Positions 2,334 to 63,108 of a DNA stretch of 64,000 nucleotides are shown piece by piece. The notes beneath the pieces were generated by a model that had not been told where the DNA came from, made no database searches, and saw only the letters and a list, made by a program, of their open reading frames with translations. Source of the DNA: a virus (taxonomy: Duplodnaviria; Caudoviricetes); IMG/VR virus record IMGVR_UViG_2918843722_000002, positions 4,720-68,719 of that record. One strand, given 5' to 3'. Position numbers and translations under genes: made by a program. Each line of letters starts with the position of its first letter. Positions within the stretch are counted from its first letter, which is position 1.

Positions 2334-2975
2334 TCAGGCGGACTTCCTGAATCGGTAGATAGTCTTCGGATGAACGTCGTAGATCTCCGCCAGAGTTCTG
2401 TTGGATAGGTTGCTTGCCCTTACCTCATCAATCTGCTCAGTGGTGAGTGATGTTTTTGGCTTCCTGTTTCTGCAGACGATCTCAGTCACACCGCACACCG
2501 GATTCAAAACGGCAAACTCGCCAAATTGGGCAATGGCAGCCTTGTTGTACGCATGAGCCGCAGCCATCGGATCGGAGAACATGCCGATAGTTACGTCACG
2601 CCCATCAATCTTCATAGCAGCCGCCCAGCGATTATTTCTTTTCACAAAATACACGCCTTTCAATCCAGTTGTGCTTTGCCTATTCAGACGTTGGTTCCAC
2701 TGATTCTGCTGGCTATTGCATAAACGGAGATTCTCAAGTTTATTATTCAGCCTGTCGCCATCGATATGATCGACTTGCCGCCTATCTCCGAATTCAAGCC
2801 CCATAATTCGTCGATGAATTAACAAGAGGGTCCTTTTACCAGGCTTCAGGGGATGATCTACATTTGATGCCACGTAACCGGCGCTTGTCACGTGCCACAC
2901 ATAAGCACAAAGATCATCAACTTTGCTATCGTCTAGTTGGATCGCGTGGCCTTTCGCGGTATATATCGTTGTCAT
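2334..2975 (-). CDS. HNH-AP2 endonuclease with C-terminal HTH
   Basis: VDHIDGDRLNNKLENLR; GLKGVYF...WAAAM AP2; terminal SNRTLAEIYDVHPKTIYR HTH. Confidence 0.9.
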   Translation of the reverse strand: MTTIYTAKGHAIQLDDSKVDDLCAYVWHVTSAGYVASNVDHPLKPGKRTLLLIHRRIMGLEFGDRRQVDHIDGDRLNNKLENLRLCNSQQNQWNQRLNRQSTTGLKGVYFVKRNNRWAAAMKIDGRDVTIGMFSDPMAAAHAYNKAAIAQFGEFAVLNPVCGVTEIVCRNRKPKTSLTTEQIDEVRASNLSNRTLAEIYDVHPKTIYRFRKSA

Positions 2976-3125
2976 TTGGCACCTTCAAAAAGAGCGGCCG
3001 AGTTGCACCGCTAAGCACGCCCCACGGGGCGGGGACCGTTAGGCTCGTGGTTCTGGAGTTGGGTGCCGCTGCGTGGCTTACCGGGAATGCGCCGTAGCCA
3101 ATCCGTGCGCGCTGCGGCGGTAGAG

Positions 3126-3782
3126 TTAGGCGGCTTGCTGGCGAAGCATTTGTTCGTAAGCCGTTACGCGCTTTTCGAACTGCAACAGCTTGGCGACCAT
3201 GTCGTCGATGAACTCTTCGTTGCGCTCGATCCGCTTGATGTACAAGTCGCGCCCGACAGATTCGAGCGCCGGCACGTACTGGATAAAGTCGCAGTAAGCG
3301 CGGCCCGTCAGGAAGAGTCCAAACTGGATCTGATGGTCATATTCCGACGTGTCGCCGGTCATCAGCATATGCATGATCTTGACGGTATCGACAGGGCATT
3401 TTATTTCGATGATGCCGTGATCGTCGTTTAGAAATCCGTCGCTTGAATATCCGAATTTTCGGTCGTCGGACAGGACGATGCCAGACTCCATCGCGAGGTT
3501 GCCGGTCCGCTCCTCGTACAGCATCCGCGCGACAGGCTCCAGAGCATGCCCGCGCTCAAGCGTGTACGCCTTGATCGGCGCAGCGTACGGGACGCCGCTA
3601 ATGCGCTCGAATGCGACCTCGTAAGCGTACTTGTCGGATGCGTCGGTCGGATCACCTGGATTCCTCGATCCAGACTTGCGCTGGAGAACGGAAATCGCAT
3701 CCGAGACGCGCGACGCGGTAATCGCGCCACTTCGGGCTTGTAGCCATTCTTGACTGCCCTGCACTGCTTCGATGAGCAACAT
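3126..3782 (-). CDS. YqaJ/lambda-Exo-type recombination exonuclease
   Basis: QGSQEWLQARSGAITAS, RGHALEP, SSDG...EIKCP, QIQFGL motifs; next to RecT. Confidence 0.92.
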   Translation of the reverse strand: MLLIEAVQGSQEWLQARSGAITASRVSDAISVLQRKSGSRNPGDPTDASDKYAYEVAFERISGVPYAAPIKAYTLERGHALEPVARMLYEERTGNLAMESGIVLSDDRKFGYSSDGFLNDDHGIIEIKCPVDTVKIMHMLMTGDTSEYDHQIQFGLFLTGRAYCDFIQYVPALESVGRDLYIKRIERNEEFIDDMVAKLLQFEKRVTAYEQMLRQQAA

Positions 3783-9817: not shown

Positions 9818-10750
9818 CTAGTCTGCTTCGACGATTTCGCCGGCAGAATTCAGCGAGTAAAAGACCATCGGTTTCGTTCCCTCCTGACCTACGATCACCG
9901 CCTTGGCATGCACGATTCGGCCGTATTCGTCGCCGTCTGAATCGCTATCCCGATAAACCAGAAATAGCGCGGTACCTTCTACGCCGCGAGCCTTCCCGTA
10001 GAAACCAGATGCCATTGCGGCAGAGTGGCGACCCTCTGCCGTGGCTGCACCGCGGGTGCCGCTTGCCGTGGCTGCACCGCCGGTGCCGCTTGCCGTGGCT
10101 GCACCGCTGTAGCCGCTTGCCGTGGCTGCACCGCTGTAGCCGCTTGCCGTGGCTGCACCGCCGGTGCCGCTTGCCGTGGCTGCACCGCGGGTGCCGCTTG
10201 CCGTGGCTGCACCGCTGTAGCCGCTTGCCGTGGCTGCACCGCCGGTGCCGCTTGCCGTGGCTGCACCGCTGTAGCCGCTTGCCGTGGCTGCACCGCGGGT
10301 GCCGCTTGCCGTGGCTGCACCGCTGTCGCCGCTTGCCGTGGCTGCACCGCCGGTGCCGCTTGCCGTGGCTAGGCCATTTTCTTCAGTGGAGTACGCAGGA
10401 GACTCGGGGTCAATCGGCTTGCAACGAGACATCGTGTATTCGACGGCCGCCTTAATCAGGCCCGCAAGATTCAATTCGACGCCGATCTTGATCTTCGAAC
10501 TGGCAATTTTCGAATCATCGCCGTGACGGCTGATTTGGCCAGATTGTTCAACGGTGAAAAAGCGGCTGCTTGCTGGCGGGTAGTAGCGCAGCACGTCTAG
10601 TGGATATTCACACGCATGGAAACCGCCGGCGCAAGCCTCAACTTTTCCCTTATGCTCAAACGTCTCGCCGGGCGCATATTGAAACCCTCTGCATTGCAGG
10701 TTCGCATCGAAACCCTTGTACGACAGAACCGGTTTTTGATCGTCGCTCAC
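9818..10750 (-). CDS. Phage protein with ATASGxxGA tandem repeats
   Basis: N-terminal SYKGFD..LQCRGFQY...GFHACEYPLDVL domain followed by 12 nine-residue repeats; GTG start with AGGGG RBS. Confidence 0.85.
   Translation of the reverse strand: MSDDQKPVLSYKGFDANLQCRGFQYAPGETFEHKGKVEACAGGFHACEYPLDVLRYYPPASSRFFTVEQSGQISRHGDDSKIASSKIKIGVELNLAGLIKAAVEYTMSRCKPIDPESPAYSTEENGLATASGTGGAATASGDSGAATASGTRGAATASGYSGAATASGTGGAATASGYSGAATASGTRGAATASGTGGAATASGYSGAATASGYSGAATASGTGGAATASGTRGAATAEGRHSAAMASGFYGKARGVEGTALFLVYRDSDSDGDEYGRIVHAKAVIVGQEGTKPMVFYSLNSAGEIVEAD
10037..10370. repeat. 27-bp coding tandem repeat, 12 full units plus a partial unit
   Basis: TGCCGTGGCTGCACCG-N5-GCCGCT unit at an exact 27-bp period from 10037 to 10361. 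Confidence 0.97.
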
Positions 10751-11311
10751 TTTGATCCCCTTTCTTTCTTACGCCGTAGCGCATAGTTGTCCTAACAGGC
10801 TTCCGCACGACGCGGCACGCGGGTTGTTTGATCAGCCGCCTAGCGGGCGGCATCCCCTTTCGCTATGGCCAAACGGCCAGTGAAATGCCCCATATCCAGG
10901 GGCGGGAGTTCAGTGCTCAGAAGAACGCACTACGCTATGCATGGAAGCTCTCTACTGGTGTTTCCTGCCGTAAGAACCGGGGCTAAGATCCACCGGGCCA
11001 GCAGGCCTTACGCCGAGTTACTTTGCAGGGAATGCAATGCGCTCATCTGAAGACTGCTATCCACGCCGGCCGCTGCTACACCCTTGTTATCGGCTCAGGG
11101 TCCGGCGTGGTTTGATCCGTCTCGCAGCGTTCCTCAGATTTCTGTCCGGTAGCCATACTTCGGCCTAGCGCGGTTCGTCTGTGCTGCGTATCGCCCGACA
11201 TTCGATCGGGGCGCCGGAGCGGGTCCACAAGGGAGGCTCCGGTTCTTCGGTTGTTAATGAACAAACCGCGGTCCAACTCTGTTGGGGCGGGTACTTCTAC
11301 TGCTACTGCTT

Positions 11312-11422
11312 TGGTGGAATCGGGCCGGAGGTGAATAACCCGGCTTGTGGTCCGCGACCCGGAAGACACCACGCTCTCCGCATCTCTTCGTTGCGCAGTC
11401 ACCACCTGCGCATTCCGATTCC
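11312..11422 (-). ncRNA. tRNA-like cloverleaf RNA ending in ACCA, no canonical anticodon loop
   Basis: GGAATCGG/CCGATTCC 8-bp acceptor plus ACCA; GCGCAG/CTGCGC arm; GAAGA/TCTTC arm; GGTC/GACC arm; GCCGG/CCGGC T-position arm. Confidence 0.7.
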
Positions 11423-11423
11423 A

Positions 11424-11612
11424 TCAAAACAGTTCCAGAATCCTTTTTGCGTTAGCTATCGCTATCTCTATCGCCTCAAAATCTGCTTCTCTTACTGCGT
11501 CTTCTTTCGCCTTATCTGCCAGCCACTCAAGTGTGTGAATCGCTGTTCGGCGGTCATTGGGAAAGTGGTGCCGTACCTCGTGGCACCACCGCAAACAAAG
11601 CGTTGCGTTCAC
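11424..11612 (-). CDS. Hypothetical early protein
   Basis: Coupled to the upstream ORF by a GTGA/ATG overlap. Confidence 0.6.
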   Translation of the reverse strand: MNATLCLRWCHEVRHHFPNDRRTAIHTLEWLADKAKEDAVREADFEAIEIAIANAKRILELF

Positions 11613-11764
11613 GCCGCTGCTTTGGCGCGCAGAGCGTCATACAGCTCGCCAGCGATCTTCAGGTAGGCACCTTCGCCGAACACCGCGTCAATCGCTTGAT
11701 CGATGGTCTTGCCTTTTGCGACTTCGGCCAGGATGCGTGCGCTGATGATTTGGTTCTTGCTCAT
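11609..11764 (-). CDS. First gene of the leftward early operon (51 aa)
   Basis: AAGGGG RBS; MSKNQIISARILAEVAKGKTIDQAIDAVFGEGAY... Confidence 0.65.
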   Translation of the reverse strand: MSKNQIISARILAEVAKGKTIDQAIDAVFGEGAYLKIAGELYDALRAKAAA

Positions 11765-11825
11765 CTCGTCCCCCTTCGTCCGGTGGTGAGTGGTGGTGCG
11801 GTGGTGCTTGGTATGGAGAGAATCA

Positions 11826-11864
11826 TAGACCTTTTTGGTCTACGCTGCACACCTTTTTGATGTG
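11826..11864 (-). promoter_or_regulatory. OL/PL: two 17-bp operators overlapping the leftward promoter
   Basis: TAGACC-TTTTT-GGTCTA (11826-11842) and variant CACACC-TTTTT-GATGTG (11848-11864); -10 TATGAT on the minus strand. Confidence 0.8.
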
Positions 11865-11927
11865 TGACCAATGAAAAAGATATTTATCGAGGATGCGTGT
11901 TTGATAGCACGAATCGAAACGGACGAG

Positions 11928-11951
11928 AAAAAGCCCGCGCGCGGCGGGCTT
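11928..11951 (-). terminator. Rho-independent terminator of the cI transcript
   Basis: AAGCCCGC/GCGGGCTT hairpin followed by a T-run on the minus strand. Confidence 0.75.
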
Positions 11952-11973
11952 GGCATGGGACGGAAACGTTTGC

Positions 11974-12147
11974 TTATTTGTTCGAATAAGCAGCTATCGC
12001 TCTGCCTGCCATGAGTAGGTGGTACGAGATTGTATCGAGCAGATGGTCCGGGATCGGCTGCTGCACTGGTTTTGATTGCTTCTCGGCGGATCGAGTTCTG
12101 TACTTTGACATGTCGATGACCGCGCTACTTCCTGTTCTTTCGTTCAC
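11974..12147 (-). CDS. Small protein downstream of and overlapping cI
   Basis: GTG start inside the cI 3' end with GAGG RBS. Confidence 0.5.
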   Translation of the reverse strand: MNERTGSSAVIDMSKYRTRSAEKQSKPVQQPIPDHLLDTISYHLLMAGRAIAAYSNK

Positions 12148-12619
12148 TGTTGGCCCCCGAGGTATCGGAATGCGCGGGACCAAGATGTTGCTCTAGTTCT
12201 GCCAGCATTTGGGACCGCACGGAGCCAGTCTGCAACTCAGCGGCTGCGGAGGAAAGTAAGAGTAAACCCTGATGTAAGGCAAATGTCTTGCGGGCCAGAT
12301 CCCCAAGTCCGTCCAGGCGCTCGACACACAGAATCAAACTTTTTGCTTCATCGCTCAGAGGGGTGAAATCCTCTTTGATCGAAGATTTAACAATGTGCTC
12401 ATGATCGAGCCACCCCTCCTCTTTGCCATACGCCTGCTCTATTCGGCGAGCTATCTCATCCCCAATTCCTCGGACCGCGTTAGGTCCGATGATCGAGTTC
12501 ACCTGCTGGTTGGACATCGGTTTTTCCGACACCTCGCTGATTTTGCGAGCGAACTCAGCCGGCCCGTCGGACGCTAGCGCGCGGGCGTTTTCATATCGTA
12601 TTTGCCTGCACGTTTTCAT
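12125..12619 (-). CDS. cI: CI-like repressor (HTH, no S24 peptidase domain)
   Basis: IRYENARAL...AEFARKI...QQVNSII...IGDEIARRIE...GWLD XRE pattern; divergent from cro; probably leaderless (TTTATC-17-TAACTT ends 6 nt before ATG). Confidence 0.8.
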   Translation of the reverse strand: MKTCRQIRYENARALASDGPAEFARKISEVSEKPMSNQQVNSIIGPNAVRGIGDEIARRIEQAYGKEEGWLDHEHIVKSSIKEDFTPLSDEAKSLILCVERLDGLGDLARKTFALHQGLLLLSSAAAELQTGSVRSQMLAELEQHLGPAHSDTSGANSERKNRK

Positions 12620-12653
12620 GCCCCGAAGTTACCCGCATGGAACAAATTGATAA

Positions 12654-12696
12654 ACATCCAAAAAGGTTTGCTGCGTAGACCTTTTTGGTCTATCAT
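12654..12696 (+). promoter_or_regulatory. OR/PR: two operators and the rightward promoter
   Basis: TAGACCTTTTTGGTCTA at 12676-12692, identical to OL; variant at 12654-12670; TTGCTG-17-TATCAT. Confidence 0.8.
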
Positions 12697-12729
12697 GAAA
12701 CCACGATCAAAACACTTACCGGTAGCCAC

Positions 12730-13134: not shown

Positions 13135-13494
13135 ATGCAGCGAGAAATGCCGTTCCTGACACAGATAAAAGACATGGAAAACGCACCTGACGAGCTCATT
13201 AAGAAGTGTCGCCACGGACTAGATGCCATCCGGCTCTGTATCCAGCTATCCGGCCACACGCACGAATTCTTGTGCGACGAGTTGAACATAGACAAGGGTC
13301 ACTTCAGCCGAATCATGCAGGGCAAAGCATGGTTTCCGGACACGAAGCGGATCGAGCTTATGAATCTTTGCGGAAACCGTGCGCCCGCCCAGTTCGACGC
13401 GCTGATGACTGGCTGCGAGCTAGTCGAACTTTCCAAGGACGCAAAGATTCGTGAACTTGAGGCGCAATTGGCTGCGCTGAGGACGGCGGCATGA
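13135..13494 (+). CDS. CII-like/XRE transcriptional regulator
   Basis: LCDELNIDKGHFSRIMQG HTH; position after cro; AAAGGA upstream. Confidence 0.7.
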   Translation: MQREMPFLTQIKDMENAPDELIKKCRHGLDAIRLCIQLSGHTHEFLCDELNIDKGHFSRIMQGKAWFPDTKRIELMNLCGNRAPAQFDALMTGCELVELSKDAKIRELEAQLAALRTAA

Positions 13495-14285
13495 AACGAA
13501 TCGTCATGCAGCCAGGCGAGGTTTGGGGCCGACTGACTGTGATCCGTGAAGAAGGCAAGCGCGCGCTTTGCCGTTGCGTGTGCGGAGCGGAAGGCTGGTT
13601 CCAGCGCGTCCACTTGCGAAGTGGGCACACGCAAAGCTGCGGTTGTTATCACCGCGAGCGTATGCGCATCAGCAAAAACAAGAAACATGGCATGTCGGGA
13701 AGGCCCACCTATATATCGTGGAGCAGCGCGAAGGGGCGCTGTACCAATCCGTTCGATAAGTGCTATGCGGAATATGGCGGTCGCGGCATCGTCATGTGTG
13801 ACCGCTGGATCAATTCATTTGAGAACTTTCTCTCTGATATGGGAGAGAAGCCGGCCGGCATGACGCTCGAGCGACGGGATGTTAACGGCCCCTACTCGCC
13901 TGAGAACTGCGAATGGGCCACGCCGCTTGAGCAGACTCGGAATCGCCGAATCACGATCAGCGTTGAGTATCGGGGAGTCTCAAAGACGCTTGGCGAATGG
14001 TGTGATGAGCTTGGTCTGGTCTACATCAGTGCACATCAAATGCTCAGATTCGGCAAGTCAGTCGAATACGCGTTCGCCAATGCAAGACGCCGCGGCGAAA
14101 CGGGCAAGCGACCGAATTACAACGCGCTTATCACGGCGGAAACCGCGTATGCCATTTTTGCGGATACGCGCCGAAACTTCGAAATCGCTATCGCCTACGG
14201 CGTTTCTCAAGCGACGGTGTGGAACATAAAGGCTGGCCGGAGCTGGCGAAATTCAATTGAACGTTACATGCGAGAAGCAGCATGA
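13491..14285 (+). CDS. HNH-type endonuclease-like protein, paralogous to 3784-4422
   Basis: WGRLTV...CRCVCG...SCGC, RC.NP....Y..YGGRGI.MCDRW, TLERRDVNGPYSPENCEWAT. Confidence 0.85.
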   Translation: MKRIVMQPGEVWGRLTVIREEGKRALCRCVCGAEGWFQRVHLRSGHTQSCGCYHRERMRISKNKKHGMSGRPTYISWSSAKGRCTNPFDKCYAEYGGRGIVMCDRWINSFENFLSDMGEKPAGMTLERRDVNGPYSPENCEWATPLEQTRNRRITISVEYRGVSKTLGEWCDELGLVYISAHQMLRFGKSVEYAFANARRRGETGKRPNYNALITAETAYAIFADTRRNFEIAIAYGVSQATVWNIKAGRSWRNSIERYMREAA

Positions 14286-24955: not shown

Positions 24956-25070
24956 TTGACGGCCGGCAGTGTTGCAGGCCGGAAGACAGATTGGATTGAT
25001 CCCCTGCTCCGCCGCCAGCCGGTAGGCCCGGCAGCTTGATACGGGCGGTGGGGCGCCAATTATCGTTTAT

Positions 25071-25183
25071 GGGGCGCCGAATCTGGCCCGCACGCGATGC
25101 TAGCGATAGCGGCGTGGCTGGTGAGTAGGACAGCAGGAAAGCGCTTTGGCGTGAGCAGGGTTCGAATCCCTGCCGCCCCTCCA
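25071..25183 (+). ncRNA. tRNA-like element with canonical T-loop and encoded CCA but no anticodon loop
   Basis: GGGGCG/CGCCCC-T-CCA; GCAGGG-TTCGAAT-CCCTGC; GCTG/CAGC arm; CACGC..GCGA..GCGTG arm. Confidence 0.65.
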
Positions 25184-25574
25184 GAGTACCCGTCATGGGC
25201 TTGAGTCTGGGTCCGCGAAAACGTTGACTCAGCGAAATCGACCGGAAGATAGGCCGGATGCACGAACCCGTAACGTGCGACAGACAATCCGTTGCCGTGG
25301 CGGCCCATCATTGGGATAGCGCGGACAGCGCCAGCGGGCGGTGTGCTGAACATGAAAACACCCGCAGCACAGCACGCCCTGCCTCGACCGGCGAAACCGG
25401 TCCAAAAGTTCAGGGCGGGGCTGTACGCGATTCGCGCGAGACCGGTGCAGATGAGGTCGCGTGACTGGCATCCCCCAAGCGTTCCAGCGCTTTGCCGGCC
25501 ACATGCCTTGACGCTCGACGGTGCCGGCGCGCGATGATCGTTAGCCGCCTGACCGGCGCAACCGGTCCTTTCAC

Positions 25575-33346: not shown

Positions 33347-35254
33347 ATGCCATTAGAAAAAGGATCGAGCAACAAGGTCGTCGGGCAAAACATAGCCGAA
33401 TTGCGCGCGGCCGGTCACCCGGAGGGCCAGTCGATCGCTATAGCCATGAAAGAGGCCGGTCGAAGCAAGGCCGACTCAGAGACTGTCCGCGCTGCTGGCA
33501 CGCTGATCATTGCGGACGGCATGGTGCTGTTCCAGCGCCGCGGGCCTGACGCAGATCATCCGGGCGAATGGTGCATTGCTGGCGGCAAGATCGAAGACGG
33601 CGAAACTCCCGAGGAAGCCGCCCGGCGCGAAACGCTTGAGGAAGTCGGCTATGAACCCGATAAGCTGATCAAGCTCGGCACCACGAGCGATGGCGATGTC
33701 GAATTCACGACGTTCTATCACGAGTGCAAGCCATTCGATGTCGTACTGAGCGACGAGAGCACCGACTATACGTGGACTCCCTTGGGAACATGGCCAGAGC
33801 CTTTGCATCCGGGTTGCCGGTTCGTGCTTGAGTCGGACGCTTTCAAGGCAGTCCGCAAGGCGCACATGACGGAGACCGAGGTCGCCCAAGCCATGATGCT
33901 GGGCGAAATGACCTCGCCGCAGTACTGTCGCAACATGTGGCTGTTTGATATCCGCATCACTGGAACCGGCACATCGTACCGCTCCAAGGACGACGAGTAT
34001 GTCTACCGGCCGCCCGAGCATTATCTCAACGATGAATTTCTGGCGCGCTGCAATGGTCTGCCGGTCATCGTCGACCATCCCGAGAAAGCCACTCTCGACT
34101 CGAAAGAGTTCAATGATCGTATCGTGGGATCTGTCCTGCTTCCCTACATCAAGGGAGACGAGGTATGGGCGATCGCGCGGATCTATGACGAAGCGACGGC
34201 AACACTGATGTCGAAGGAACAGTTGTCGACATCTCCGTCTGTCGTATTTCGCAACCCTGCAGTAGAGAATTCCACCGCCACTCTTGACGGTGGGCAGACC
34301 CTCTTGATTGAGGGAAAACCGATCCTGCTCGATCACATCGCTATTTGCGAGGTGGGCGTGTGGGACAAAGGCGGCCCGCCAACCGGCGTATCCACCAACC
34401 ACGTTCAGGAACCTGAGATGACTGAAGAAGAGCGTAAGGCCAAGGCGGACGCCGAGGCGAAAGAAGAACTCGAAGCGCGTGCCAAGGCCGACGCTGAGGC
34501 AAAGGCAAAAGCCGATGCCGAAGAAGAGAAAGCCAAGGTGGATGCCGAGAAGTACGACAAGCTGATCAGCATGTGTGACTCGCTGATGAAGCGCATGGAC
34601 TCGTACGAAGGCAAGAAGGCCGACGCCATGCCGGCGGGAGAACTGCCGGTCGGCGACAAGAAGGCTGACTCCGAGAAGGAAGAAAAGGACGCCAAGGAGA
34701 AGGAAGCTGAGGCGGCCAAGCTCAAGGCAGAGGCCAAGGAAGAAGAAGCCAAGGCTGATGCGGCCAAGCGTGAAAACGCTCTGCTCGCTCGCGTTGGCGA
34801 ACTAGAAAAGATGCTGGCAATGACGGCATCGCTCACGCCGAAGCCCCTTACGGATGCTGATCACGCAGCGATGGCCGACGCGCAGGCGAAAGCCGACAGC
34901 GTCTATTCGGCTCACGGCAAGTCCGCCCCCCGCGCTCTGAATGGCGAAGATTTGCTTGCATACCGCAAGCGTCTTGCCGCACCGATGAAGACCCACAGCA
35001 AGGAATGGCAAAGCATCGACCTCGCCAAGCTTGATGCGGCGACGTTCAGCGTGATCGAGCCCAAGATCTACGCTGACGCGATGGAAGCAGCATTGCACCC
35101 GACTGATCTGGAAGACGGCAGCCTGCGCGCTGTGCCGAAGAACACCGGCACGGGCCACGTGATCACCAACTTCTATGGCAGCTCGCCGCGTGCATGGATG
35201 GGAGACTTCCGCATCCCCAGCAAGAAGAGCCGCATCCATCAACCCAAGCATTAA
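33347..35254 (+). CDS. Nudix hydrolase fused to DUF2213 head maturation protease and scaffold
   Basis: Nudix box [23 protein letters not shown]; [18 protein letters not shown] protease motifs; charged C-terminal coiled coil. Confidence 0.88.
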
Positions 35255-37270: not shown

Positions 37271-37327
37271 GCCCGCGCCTAGGATGGCGCATCCGAAAAT
37301 CCGTTCCCTGTACGGATCGGCGCGGGC
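37271..37327 (+). ncRNA. C4-like cis-acting RNA element 1
   Basis: GCCCGCGCC/GGCGCGGGC closing stem, TAGG-hairpin-CC-GAAA, ATCCGT/ACGGAT hairpin. Confidence 0.55.
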
Positions 37328-37358
37328 ACCTTAACAGGGGATCTATACAGGAAAGATC

Positions 37359-62890: not shown

Positions 62891-62896
62891 GTATGT

Positions 62897-63061
62897 GGAG
62901 TGAATGCGCAGGTGCTGACTGCGCTAATCAGCGGAGCGAGAGCCCTGTTTGTCAGAAATCCGCGGCAGAACCTGTGACGCCCAGGCGGAGCAGGGGTGTA
63001 AAACGAGGCGTCGGGATGAACGCCTATTGCCCGCAAGCCGGAGATCAGCACCGGCCACTCC
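62897..63061 (+). ncRNA. tRNA-like RNA with an expanded central domain, paralogue of 11312-11422
   Basis: GGAGTG/CACTCC acceptor; AAT-GCGCAG-GTGCTGA-CTGCGC arm; GCCGG-AGATCAGCA-CCGGC arm; internal CCCTG/CAGGG and AGGCGT/ACGCCT stems. Confidence 0.7.
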
Positions 63062-63108
63062 CCCTTACCTCTTCCAGCGCTCTTTGAAGCGTGCTGGAAC
63101 ACCCCTCC

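What the first reader, a model, noticed from the sequence alone, without database searches (positions are those of the whole stretch)
11312..11422. CCA-ended tRNA mimic without an anticodon, embedded in the early operon
Seen (minus strand): GGAATCGG pairs perfectly with CCGATTCC and is followed by ACCA. Inside are a 6-bp D-position arm (GCGCAG/CTGCGC), a long irregular arm where the anticodon should be (GAAGA/TCTTC), a short variable arm (GGTC/GACC) and a 5-bp T-position arm with an 11-nt non-canonical loop. It starts 1 nt after a stop codon. Knowledge: an 8+5 acceptor/T geometry with a 6-bp D-stem is the bacterial tRNA-Sec layout; RNase P processes tRNA-shaped phage RNAs such as P4 CI and P1 C4. 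Inference: this non-decoding tRNA mimic is excised from the earliest transcript. It could be an immunity/antisense RNA, a decoy for tRNA-targeting defences, or a ribosome/RelA ligand. With three further tRNA-shaped elements (25071, 25575, 62897), this is my best candidate for an undescribed system.
Basis: partly seen in the sequence, partly recalled or inferred. Interest (0 to 1): 0.85.

Follow-up and report, generated by a model that had tools for sequence, protein, structure and literature searches.

The report
Prophage small RNA with tRNA-like fold
The flagged 111 bases are a real, conserved folded RNA, a Burkholderia-type member of a widespread but uncurated family of prophage small RNAs (E. 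coli sRNA-17, related to STnc100 and through it PasD) that has a tRNA-like layout held by a loop-loop "kiss", but it is not a CCA-ended tRNA mimic of a new kind.

Summary

The element belongs to a large RNA family found in over 100 viral contigs, in phage P1, Stx2 phages and mEp460, and in 1481 of 5426 complete E. coli genomes. The shared layout is: closing stem P1, then (G)AAU, hairpin P2, a variable centre, CAA, hairpin P3, and the returning P1 strand. Fourteen of 17 pairs show compensatory changes. The P2 and P3 loops are complementary and co-vary: GGUGA/UCACC here, GCUGA/UCAGC in the second copy at 62897-63061.

A model built without the window's sequences finds both copies and nothing else in the window.

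One member is published: sRNA-17 of E. coli K1, mapped by RACE and Northern blot. Rfam's STnc100 has the same layout, and a 2026 preprint links PasD to STnc100. No Rfam family reaches threshold on this element.

The ACCA tail is not conserved in the family. There is no anticodon arm and no T-loop. The elements at 25071 and 25575 are unrelated.

Family members often sit on the same strand as tRNA genes, sometimes 0-10 nt away.

This scan met the same family before in enteric prophage leaders.

Function is inferred: a stable scaffold carrying a variable effector domain.

The parts
11312..11422 (-). The flagged element as a whole (111 nt). The covariance-model match covers 11316-11422.
   Evidence: Sequence; MFE fold. 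Model R1 gives 53.4 bits. The independent model R2 gives 34.9 bits, E 1e-6.
11415..11422 (-). P1 5' strand, GGAAUCGG. Its last G is the family's invariant closing G of 'GAAU'.
   Evidence: all 7 modelled P1 pairs show compensatory change across the family.
11316..11323 (-). P1 3' strand, CCGAUUCC, directly abutting P3.
11412..11414 (-). The conserved AAU linker between P1 and P2.
   Evidence: Nearly invariant columns in alignments A2 and A5.
11393..11411 (-).
   Evidence: 4 of 5 pairs with compensatory change. Identical at 22 of 23 nt to 62902-62924.
11399..11403 (-). GGUGA in loop L2, proposed to pair with L3.
   Evidence: Loop-loop covariation.
11345..11392 (-). Variable central domain: a 5-bp stem with an 18-nt loop, a 4-bp hairpin, and the ACAA linker.
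   Evidence: Not conserved in sequence or length across the family; whole elements span 80 to about 220 nt. A metagenome contig keeps the element's ends but replaces 76 nt of the centre with 77 other letters.
11324..11344 (-).
11330..11334 (-). UCACC in loop L3, complementary to GGUGA in L2.
11312..11315 (-). The ACCA tail. It is present here but is not a conserved family feature.
62897..63061 (+). Second family member (165 nt): P1 GGAGUG/CACUCC, L2 GUGCUGA, L3 AGAUCAGCA, and a 112-nt centre. It starts 36 nt after the stop of a tail-assembly-chaperone-like ORF.
   Evidence: 69.3 bits; 57.6 bits.
11424..11612 (-). 62-aa ORF whose stop codon ends one base before the element. A 71%-identical homologue exists in another provirus, where no RNA element follows it.
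11931..11951 (-). Intrinsic-terminator-like hairpin plus T-run downstream of the repressor-like gene 12125-12619 (-). It marks the end of the immunity transcript and the start of the early-left unit.
11085..11260 (-). A second conserved non-coding module directly downstream. About 48 nt are nearly invariant with Burkholderia phage phi644-2 and a Shewanella phage.
   Evidence: No Rfam hit; the fold is not better than shuffles.

Best explanation
The element is a Burkholderiales-type member of a widespread family of phage and prophage small RNAs.

Core architecture. An 8-9-bp closing stem P1 is followed by AAU and a GC-rich hairpin P2. On the 3' side, CAA and a GC-rich hairpin P3 lie flush against the returning P1 strand. 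The P2 and P3 loops form 5-8 Watson-Crick pairs with each other. This gives a compact, tRNA-topology junction. Between P2 and P3 sits a domain that differs freely between members.

Most likely mechanism (inferred). The conserved core acts as a folding, stability and processing scaffold. The variable centre, and in some members the 3' tail, carries the specificity of a trans-acting regulatory RNA. This is how the relatives are described: sRNA-17 changes host transcript levels, and PasD and STnc100 are described as Hfq-associated base-pairing sRNAs.

In this prophage. The RNA lies in the leftward early operon, one base after a small ORF, with no consensus promoter or terminator of its own. It would therefore have to be cut out of the polycistronic transcript. 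The tRNA-like shape and the family's habit of sitting in tRNA arrays make tRNA-processing enzymes plausible agents.

Shown versus inferred. Shown: the fold, the family, the covariation, the loop-loop complementarity, the genomic contexts, and transcription of one enteric member. Inferred: excision, trans action, and the scaffold/payload division.

Confidence split: about 0.9 for identity and structure, about 0.45 for the mechanism.
For: Family and structure:
- The P2 motif finds 9 homologous elements in viral contigs. The P3 motif finds more than 118 contigs.
- P1 pairs in nearly all true members when anchored only on P2 and P3.
- 98.8% of cells pair, 14 of 17 pairs show compensatory change, and 0 of 500 shuffles match this; slid controls give 22-47%.
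- Loop-loop complementarity averages 5.7 contiguous pairs against 3.7 for shuffled loops. The G/C swap (GGUGA:UCACC versus GCUGA:UCAGC) appears in two loop backgrounds.

Membership:
- Model R2 was built only from GGCUGA-type members and excludes the window. It finds 62895-63063 (57.6 bits) and 11316-11422 (34.9 bits, E 1e-6) as the only hits in the window.

Transcription of a member:
- The primers and alignment for sRNA-17 show that its 5' end is the first base of P1 and that its Northern probe is antisense to the core (PMC7719688).

Relatives:
- The Rfam STnc100 consensus has the same P1-AAU-P2...P3-P1' layout, and cross-hits fall in register.
- PasD is reported as structurally homologous to STnc100 and as an Hfq RIL-seq sRNA (bioRxiv 10.64898/2026.05.13.724894).

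Modularity:
- Phage P1 relative JL22 carries three tandem copies with different centres, and the window carries two.
- A metagenome contig keeps the element's ends but swaps its centre.
- Phage phi644-2 has an 80-nt minimal member.

Context:
- 13 of 79 members lie within 500 nt of a tRNA gene, all on the same strand, with gaps down to 1-10 nt. Some genome copies start 0-1 nt after a tRNA.
- Some members are followed at once by terminators.

Not coding:
- The overlapping ORFs match no PHROG or Pfam family.
Against: - There is no expression data for this prophage. The only RNA-library material was a few short metatranscriptome contigs, which cannot show transcription.
- Neither window copy has a consensus sigma-70 promoter or an intrinsic terminator nearby. 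It therefore lacks the terminator/U-tail that classic Hfq sRNAs, and sRNA-17 itself, carry.
- No convincing target complementarity was found. The best matches were 12-13-mers inside ORFs.
- P2 and P3 are conserved in sequence more strongly than pairing alone requires. This hints at recognition by a specific partner, not only a passive scaffold.
- The sRNA-17 phenotypes are modest. The largest effect, on the genes just downstream, could be a cis effect of the deletion cassette.
Confidence: 0.55

Rival explanations
1. tRNA mimic or decoy. The core imitates the acceptor/T-arm helix and elbow of a tRNA. It would be cut by RNase P and 3'-trimmed or CCA-tailed like a tRNA. It would act by occupying a tRNA-binding factor, such as a tRNA-targeting defence nuclease, a processing or modification enzyme, or a ribosome- or RelA-type site.
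For: - Topology: P1 is flush with a 5-bp 3' hairpin, a 5' hairpin follows a 3-nt linker, and the loops contact each other.
- P1 is 8-9 bp in 59 of 76 members, giving a 13-14-bp P1+P3 stack.
- Members sit on the same strand as tRNA genes, often very tightly spaced.
- CCA occurs at 0-2 nt after P1 in 20 of 68 members, against about 6 of 68 in a control window, and it is present here.
- P2 and P3 are conserved in sequence beyond what pairing needs.
Against: - ARAGORN and the Rfam tRNA, tRNA-Sec and YrlA models score nothing.
- The 3' hairpin loop is not a T-loop, and no anticodon arm is conserved.
- 43 of 68 members have no CCA near the end.
- P1 can be 12-23 bp.
- Some members run straight into terminators.
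- Relatives are described as Hfq-bound base-pairing sRNAs.
Confidence: 0.2
2. A cis-acting element of the early-left transcript. It could be a processing or stability site, or a transcription attenuator or barrier, that sets how much of the downstream early genes is expressed. It would not be a free trans-acting RNA.
For: - The element recurs just downstream of the repressor and leftward-promoter region in mEp460 and Stx2 phages and in this window.
- Deleting sRNA-17 raised the two genes immediately downstream about 17-95-fold (PMC7719688).
- Here the element starts one base after a stop codon, with no promoter or terminator of its own.
Against: - The same core occurs in unrelated contexts: after tRNAs in P1, between tail genes in IME207, after a tail-chaperone gene at 62.9 kb, and between bacterial tRNA genes.
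- It has no credible match in HK022, so it is not a put-type antiterminator.
- The enteric barrier effect can be explained by the separate terminator that follows the core, which is absent here.
Confidence: 0.15
3. A chance fold or part of a protein-coding gene.
For: ORFs overlap the region on both strands (11076-11405 -, 11254-11427 -, 11181-11666 +). The single-sequence z-score is only -2.57.
Against: - Compensatory changes occur in three helices across dozens of sequences.
- The centre varies in length without any regard to reading frame.
- An independent covariance model hits the element.
- The overlapping ORFs match no PHROG or Pfam family.
Confidence: 0.02

Closest known systems
sRNA-17 of neonatal-meningitis E. 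coli K1 RS218 (Front Microbiol 2020, PMC7719688)
   Same: It has the same conserved core: P1, GAAU, the GCGCA...UGCGC hairpin, CAA, the GCCGG...CCGGC hairpin, and complementary loops. It also occupies the same place, downstream of the prophage repressor in the leftward operon. Its 5' RACE end is the first base of P1. Models built from sRNA-17-type sequences find the window element.
   Different: - sRNA-17 is 193 nt: a 135-nt core followed by a 58-nt tail that looks like a terminator hairpin. The window element has no terminator.
- The loop pair is GCUGA/UCAGC in sRNA-17 and GGUGA/UCACC here.
- The central domains are unrelated.
- The hosts are enteric bacteria versus Burkholderiales.
- The paper gives only an Mfold structure and describes no family.
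STnc100 (Rfam RF02076), with the PasD1/PasD2 sRNAs that a 2026 preprint reports as structurally homologous to it
   Same: The layout is the same: P1 of 7-8 bp ending in GGUG, then AAU, a 5-bp hairpin, a variable centre, a 5-bp hairpin flush with the P1 return strand CACC, and then a terminator. The third copy in phage JL22 scores on both models. R1 hits a bona fide STnc100 in register. STnc100 is also prophage-borne.
   Different: - The P2, P3 and loop sequences differ (CCCCC/GGGG and CCGGG-AGGCA-CCCGG).
- The window element gets no STnc100 hit even at E <= 10, so it fails the curated threshold.
- STnc100 and PasD are so far described only from enteric bacteria.
tRNA, in particular bacterial tRNA-Sec (8+5 acceptor/T geometry)
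   Same: The order of helices matches. An 8-bp closing stem is stacked on a 5-bp 3' hairpin, there is a 6-bp 5' hairpin, and the two loops contact each other. Family members sit inside tRNA arrays.
   Different: There is no anticodon arm, no T-loop or D-loop consensus, and no conserved CCA. The loop contact is a 5-8-bp Watson-Crick kiss. No tRNA detector responds.
RNase P-processed phage antisense RNAs (P1/P7 C4, P4 CI; Rfam C4 RF01695)
   Same: These too are small structured RNAs in phage immunity or early regions.
   Different: No C4-family match was found at gathering or at E <= 10. The architecture is different. No paired target sites were found nearby.
Purine-riboswitch-type three-way junctions with loop-loop docking (comparison from memory, not tested)
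   Same: A closing stem with two neighbouring hairpins whose loops pair.
   Different: The family has a long variable insert between the hairpins. It has no conserved junction pocket and no consistent position upstream of genes.

Membership tests
sRNA-17-type prophage RNA family (uncurated; models R1 and R2 built here) | Closing stem P1 whose sequence varies but whose pairing is kept | tested here: met
   The 8-bp GGAAUCGG/CCGAUUCC pairing is present. Family-wide compensatory change is shown.
sRNA-17-type prophage RNA family (uncurated; models R1 and R2 built here) | Conserved (G)AAU followed by the GCGCA...UGCGC hairpin, and CAA followed by the GCCGG...CCGGC hairpin flush with the P1 3' strand | tested here: met
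sRNA-17-type prophage RNA family (uncurated; models R1 and R2 built here) | Complementary P2 and P3 loops | tested here: met
   GGUGA (11403-11399) is complementary to UCACC (11334-11330). Covariation with the GCUGA/UCAGC members is shown.
sRNA-17-type prophage RNA family (uncurated; models R1 and R2 built here) | Detected by a covariance model built without it or its subtype | tested here: met
   R2 gives 34.9 bits, E 1e-6, over the full model length. Only the two copies hit in 64 kb.
sRNA-17-type prophage RNA family (uncurated; models R1 and R2 built here) | An intrinsic terminator after the core, as in sRNA-17 | tested here: not met
   No terminator-like site lies downstream of either window copy. 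A strict scan also found one in only 11 of 70 members, so this is not a family-wide trait.
STnc100 (Rfam RF02076) | Score at or above the curated gathering threshold of 47 bits | tested here: not met
   No match at E <= 10 on 11100-11650 and none at gathering threshold on the whole window.
STnc100 (Rfam RF02076) | The P1-AAU-P2-centre-P3-P1' layout of model positions 31-147 | tested here: met
   Compared by inspection of the model consensus and a 153.8-bit STnc100. R1 aligns to it in register at 14.8 bits.
tRNA / tRNA-Sec | Recognised by tRNA detectors (ARAGORN; Rfam tRNA and tRNA-Sec models) | tested here: not met
tRNA / tRNA-Sec | An anticodon stem-loop with a 7-nt loop, and T-loop and D-loop consensus | tested here: not met
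   The central arm has an 18-nt loop, and the 3' hairpin loop is GUUAUUCACCU.
tRNA / tRNA-Sec | A 3' NCCA end | tested here: inconclusive
   ACCA is present here. In the family, CCA at 0-2 nt after P1 occurs in 20 of 68 members, which is enriched about three-fold, but it is absent within 8 nt in 43 of 68.
C4/CI-type phage antisense RNA (Rfam RF01695 and relatives) | Covariance-model match | tested here: not met
YrlA / bacterial Y RNA (Rfam RF02553) | Covariance-model match | tested here: not met
HK022 put antiterminator RNA | Homology to the RNA elements of phage HK022 | tested here: not met
   R1 on the whole HK022 genome gives only one 17.5-bit hit (E 0.02) at 33582-33652, which is not a credible family member.

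The most novel reading that the evidence does not exclude
The conserved core is a true functional tRNA surrogate. On this reading it is recognised and cut by the tRNA-processing machinery (RNase P at the first base of P1, then 3' trimming or CCA addition). It would serve phages as a decoy, or as a delivery scaffold, aimed at a host tRNA-binding factor such as a tRNA-targeting defence nuclease. The variable centre would be the bait. That would make this a widespread, unrecognised class of phage counter-defence or tRNA-scaffolded RNA present in phages of both enteric bacteria and Burkholderiales.
Probability: 0.15. Interest if true: 0.75.

Novelty: new member of a known kind. Interest (0 to 1): 0.45.

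Why it matters
The element shows that a prophage small-RNA type known only from scattered enteric examples is one structural family. Those examples are sRNA-17 and STnc100; a preprint ties PasD to STnc100. The family reaches into Burkholderiales phages, phage P1 and Stx phages. It has a defined core: a tRNA-like junction locked by a co-varying loop-loop kiss, with a swappable central domain.

The family is present in about a quarter of complete E. coli genomes, yet it is absent from Rfam and left unannotated. In phage P1 relative JL22, the record's 'plp' gene and a hypothetical ORF lie antisense to these RNAs.

A curated model would correct such annotations. It would also give a clear target for experiments on what the conserved core binds and why it travels with phage tRNA genes. 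For this particular window the result is a solid annotation, not a new kind of system.

Tried and rejected
- tRNA detection. ARAGORN at default settings finds nothing in the window. With lowered thresholds it returns hundreds of calls, which is noise. In intron mode it calls only 25042-25183.
- Rfam. At gathering threshold the window has only int-alpA (37272) and Proteo-phage-1 (25289). Nothing scores at E <= 10 on 11100-11650. No family covers the element in 11 member loci.
- Exact 30-mer of the element in viral contigs: no match.
- Neighbour-based search. The upstream 62-aa ORF has one relative (L003), but no element follows it there.
- put RNA. HK022 has no credible match.
- K-12 cryptic prophage CPS-53 lacks the element. 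RS218 is not in the E. coli collection.
- Literature search for the core motifs as text: no paper.
- Target search. Complementarity of the central domains to the window gave only 12-13-mers inside long ORFs, taken as chance.
- T-arm-like hairpins in the centre occur in only 5 of 76 members, so this is not a family trait.
- Public runs. Only Logan contigs were available, and the two RNA libraries held small shares. A few short metatranscriptome contigs touch the region but cannot show transcription, ends or strand. No use was made of uncovered parts.
- Promoter. The TTGTAA-17-TATGCT upstream of the 62.9-kb copy matches only 8 of 12 consensus positions and is not reported by the scan.
- Folding of the downstream conserved module (11085-11275) is no better than shuffles.

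Full report
**What is there**

- an 8-bp closing stem, GGAAUCGG/CCGAUUCC
- a 3-nt AAU linker
- a 6-bp hairpin, GCGCAG/CUGCGC, with a 7-nt loop
- a 5-bp stem with an 18-nt loop
- a 4-bp hairpin
- a 5-bp hairpin, GCCGG/CCGGC, with an 11-nt loop, lying flush against the returning strand of the closing stem
- an ACCA tail

The stop codon of a 62-aa ORF ends one base upstream. RNAfold gives this cloverleaf as the MFE (-47.5 kcal/mol, z -2.57). ARAGORN finds no tRNA in the window. Rfam finds nothing here even at E <= 10. The overlapping ORFs match no PHROG or Pfam family.

**It is a member of a large RNA family**

A self-search showed that 23 nt of the 5' hairpin recur at 62902-62924. Searching viral contigs with that hairpin gave nine homologous elements. 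They have different closing-stem sequences that still pair, for example GGAGAG/CUCUCC, AGAGAGC/GCUCUCU and GAUGGU/ACCAUC.

The common plan is:
- P1, then (G)AAU
- P2, usually GCGCA-GGCUGA-UGCGC
- a variable centre, which gives whole elements of 80 to about 220 nt
- CAA
- P3, GCCGG-AGAUCAGCA-CCGGC
- C, then the P1 return strand

The G of GAAU pairs with the C after P3, so P3 abuts P1 directly.

In a test anchored only on P2 and P3, the first five P1 positions pair in 60-62 of 67 rows. The non-pairing rows come mostly from spurious second 3'-hairpin matches. On a 36-sequence MAFFT alignment:
- 98.8% of cells pair, against 22-47% when partners are slid
- 14 of 17 pairs carry changes on both sides
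- none of 500 shuffles reaches the observed values

A caveat applies: those 36 sequences had been picked with a 6-nt P1 complement, which is why the anchor-based test matters.

**A loop-loop kiss**

The loop of P2 is complementary to the loop of P3, and the two co-vary.
- Members with GGUG-G-UGA in L2 carry CACC or UCACC in L3. These are the flagged element, L004, L007, L009 and L014. A short-loop variant in L047 does the same.
- Members with G-C-UGA carry UCAGC. These are the 62.9-kb copy, the enteric majority and the Burkholderiaceae genome copies.
- Other changes are wobble-compatible or shift the register, for example GGCUGG with UCAGCC, and UGCUGA with UUAGCA.

Mean contiguous complementarity is 5.7 bp against 3.7 for shuffled loops. 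A few members break the rule (L069, L146, L016).

The two copies in this window display the swap themselves: GGUGA/UCACC at 11.4 kb and GCUGA/UCAGC at 62.9 kb.

**Membership tested independently**

Model R1 was built with the window sequences in its seed. It finds only two hits in the window: 11316-11422 (-) and 62895-63063 (+).

Model R2 was built from 28 GGCUGA-type members only, excluding the window and its whole subtype. It again finds just these two, at 34.9 bits (E 1e-6) and 57.6 bits.

The first of those has a canonical T-arm plus CCA and a sub-threshold mascRNA-like score, so it is a different, tRNA-derived element.

**Where the family lives**

Near-identical enteric copies occur in 98 phage records and in 1481 of 5426 complete E. 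coli genomes, and none is annotated.
- In mEp460 and an Stx2a phage, the element sits in the gap downstream of the cI-like repressor, on the same strand and ahead of the early-left genes.
- In the P1 relative JL22, three tandem copies with different centres follow tRNA-Asn and tRNA-Thr on the same strand. They lie antisense to the annotated 'plp' gene and a hypothetical ORF.
- In IME207 the element lies between tail genes.
- Burkholderia phage phi644-2 has an 80-nt minimal member.
- The exact P2 motif of this subtype occurs in Paraburkholderia phymatum and in an Achromobacter MAG.
- R1 hits at least 11 of 151 sampled genomes of that Paraburkholderia's family, which is a floor. It gives four clear hits in 151 genomes across the phylum.

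Of 79 distinct elements, 13 lie within 500 nt of a tRNA gene. All 13 are on the tRNA's strand, with gaps down to 1-10 nt. Several genome copies start 0-1 nt after a tRNA 3' end or are followed by a tRNA 9 nt later.

**What is already known**

Earlier notes of this scan had met the same family in enteric prophage leaders and named a paper. I checked it.

sRNA-17 of E. coli K1 RS218 is 193 nt and was mapped by RACE and Northern blot. Deleting it changes tens of host transcripts. The paper reports no Rfam homologue (PMC7719688). Its supplementary primers and alignment show three things:
- its 5' end is the first base of P1
- its body is the 135-nt core
- its last 58 nt look like a terminator hairpin, and the Northern probe is antisense to the core

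So one member is an experimentally detected RNA in the orientation modelled here.

My own Rfam scan of the JL22 copies gave a sub-threshold STnc100 (RF02076) match on the third copy, at 34.4 bits against a threshold of 47. The STnc100 consensus has the same layout, with different hairpin sequences: P1 ending in GGUG, AAU, a 5-bp hairpin, a centre, CCGGG-AGGCA-CCCGG, and CACC. A genuine STnc100 in the Stx2a phage (153.8 bits) is aligned in register by R1, though at only 14.8 bits.

A 2026 preprint reports that the Hfq-bound PasD sRNAs are structurally homologous to STnc100. I found no description of the family-wide core, of the kiss, or of members outside the enterics. A text search for the motifs found nothing. 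A 2023 catalogue of about 10,000 unnamed viral RNA candidates could contain it, but I could not check that.

**The tRNA-mimic reading**

The topology is tRNA-like. P1 is 8-9 bp in 59 of 76 members, so P1 plus P3 would give a 13-14-bp stack. Together with the tRNA-array habit, this keeps co-processing by tRNA enzymes plausible.

The specific claims, however, fail at family level:
- CCA follows P1 within 0-2 nt in 20 of 68 members. This is about three times background, but 43 of 68 have none within 8 nt.
- P1 reaches 12-23 bp in some members.
- There is no anticodon arm and no T-loop.
- All tRNA-type models are silent.
- HK022 has no credible match, so the element is not a put antiterminator.

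**Context in this window**

A repressor-like gene (12125-12619, -) is followed by a strong terminator-like hairpin (11951-11931). Two small ORFs follow, then the element. Next comes a second conserved non-coding module (about 11085-11260) that is shared with phi644-2 and a Shewanella phage. After it lies a 310-aa repeat protein.

No consensus promoter or terminator flanks the element. The second copy starts 36 nt after a tail-assembly-chaperone-like gene, again without a consensus promoter or terminator. Both copies therefore look like 3'-UTR-type RNAs that would need processing to be released.

Public runs gave only contigs. One DNA contig keeps the element's ends but replaces the centre, 76 nt swapped for 77 others, which fits a modular centre. 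Nothing usable on expression was obtained.

**Verdict**

The element is a real structured RNA and a new, Burkholderiales-type member of the sRNA-17 family, which shares its layout with STnc100.

The most likely working model is a stable tRNA-topology scaffold carrying a variable effector domain, released from the early-left transcript. I put about 0.9 on identity and structure, and about 0.45 on the mechanism.

The decoy reading (0.2) and the cis-leader reading (0.15) remain open.

Noticed in passing
window 11085-11260 (-): A second conserved non-coding module lies directly downstream of the element. About 48 nt (CAGACGAACCGCGCUAGGCCGA...GGCUACCGGACAGAAAUCUGA) are nearly invariant with Burkholderia phage phi644-2 and Shewanella phage vB_Sb_QDWS, where it also lies in unannotated gaps. 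In phi644-2 the family RNA follows this module instead of preceding it. There is no Rfam hit, and the fold is no better than shuffles.
   Followed up: partly
window 25042-25183 (+): A tRNA-derived element with a canonical T-arm (GGGUUCGAAUCCC), a 6-bp acceptor-like stem and UCCA. ARAGORN calls it tRNA-Thr only in intron mode, and Rfam gives a sub-threshold mascRNA-like score (26.4 bits). The family models do not match it. It lies next to a Proteo-phage-1 RNA (25289-25369).
   Followed up: partly
L135 (Escherichia phage JL22, a P1 relative) 2515-3326: Three tandem family RNAs follow tRNA-Asn and tRNA-Thr on the same strand. The annotated 'plp' lipoprotein gene and a hypothetical ORF lie antisense to them. 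Those ORF annotations in this P1-type record may be artefacts over an RNA array.
   Followed up: partly
window 37272-37340 (+): A clear int-alpA RNA (Rfam RF02996, 52.8 bits), which suggests an integrase/AlpA module in the middle of the window.
   Followed up: no
window 9818-10750 (-): A 310-aa protein with about 14 tandem 'GAATASG'-type heptad-like repeats between conserved N- and C-terminal domains (phrog_4433, unknown function). It is the first large ORF downstream of the RNA modules.
   Followed up: no
Read laying on window 10900-12700, run X3 (rhizosphere DNA contigs): One related contig keeps both ends of the element (11294-11328 and 11405-11434) but carries 77 different letters in place of the 76-nt centre. 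Its loose end at 11434 reads as the 3' hairpin of another family member immediately upstream, which suggests tandem copies in a relative.
   Followed up: no
L165 (Burkholderia phage phi644-2) 1370-1449: An 80-nt minimal family member whose centre is a single hairpin. It is the smallest complete core seen and a good candidate for structure determination.
   Followed up: no
window 13491-14285 (+): An HNH endonuclease-like ORF (phrog_374, E 3e-58) sits at the start of the rightward genes, overlapping the divergent region.
   Followed up: no
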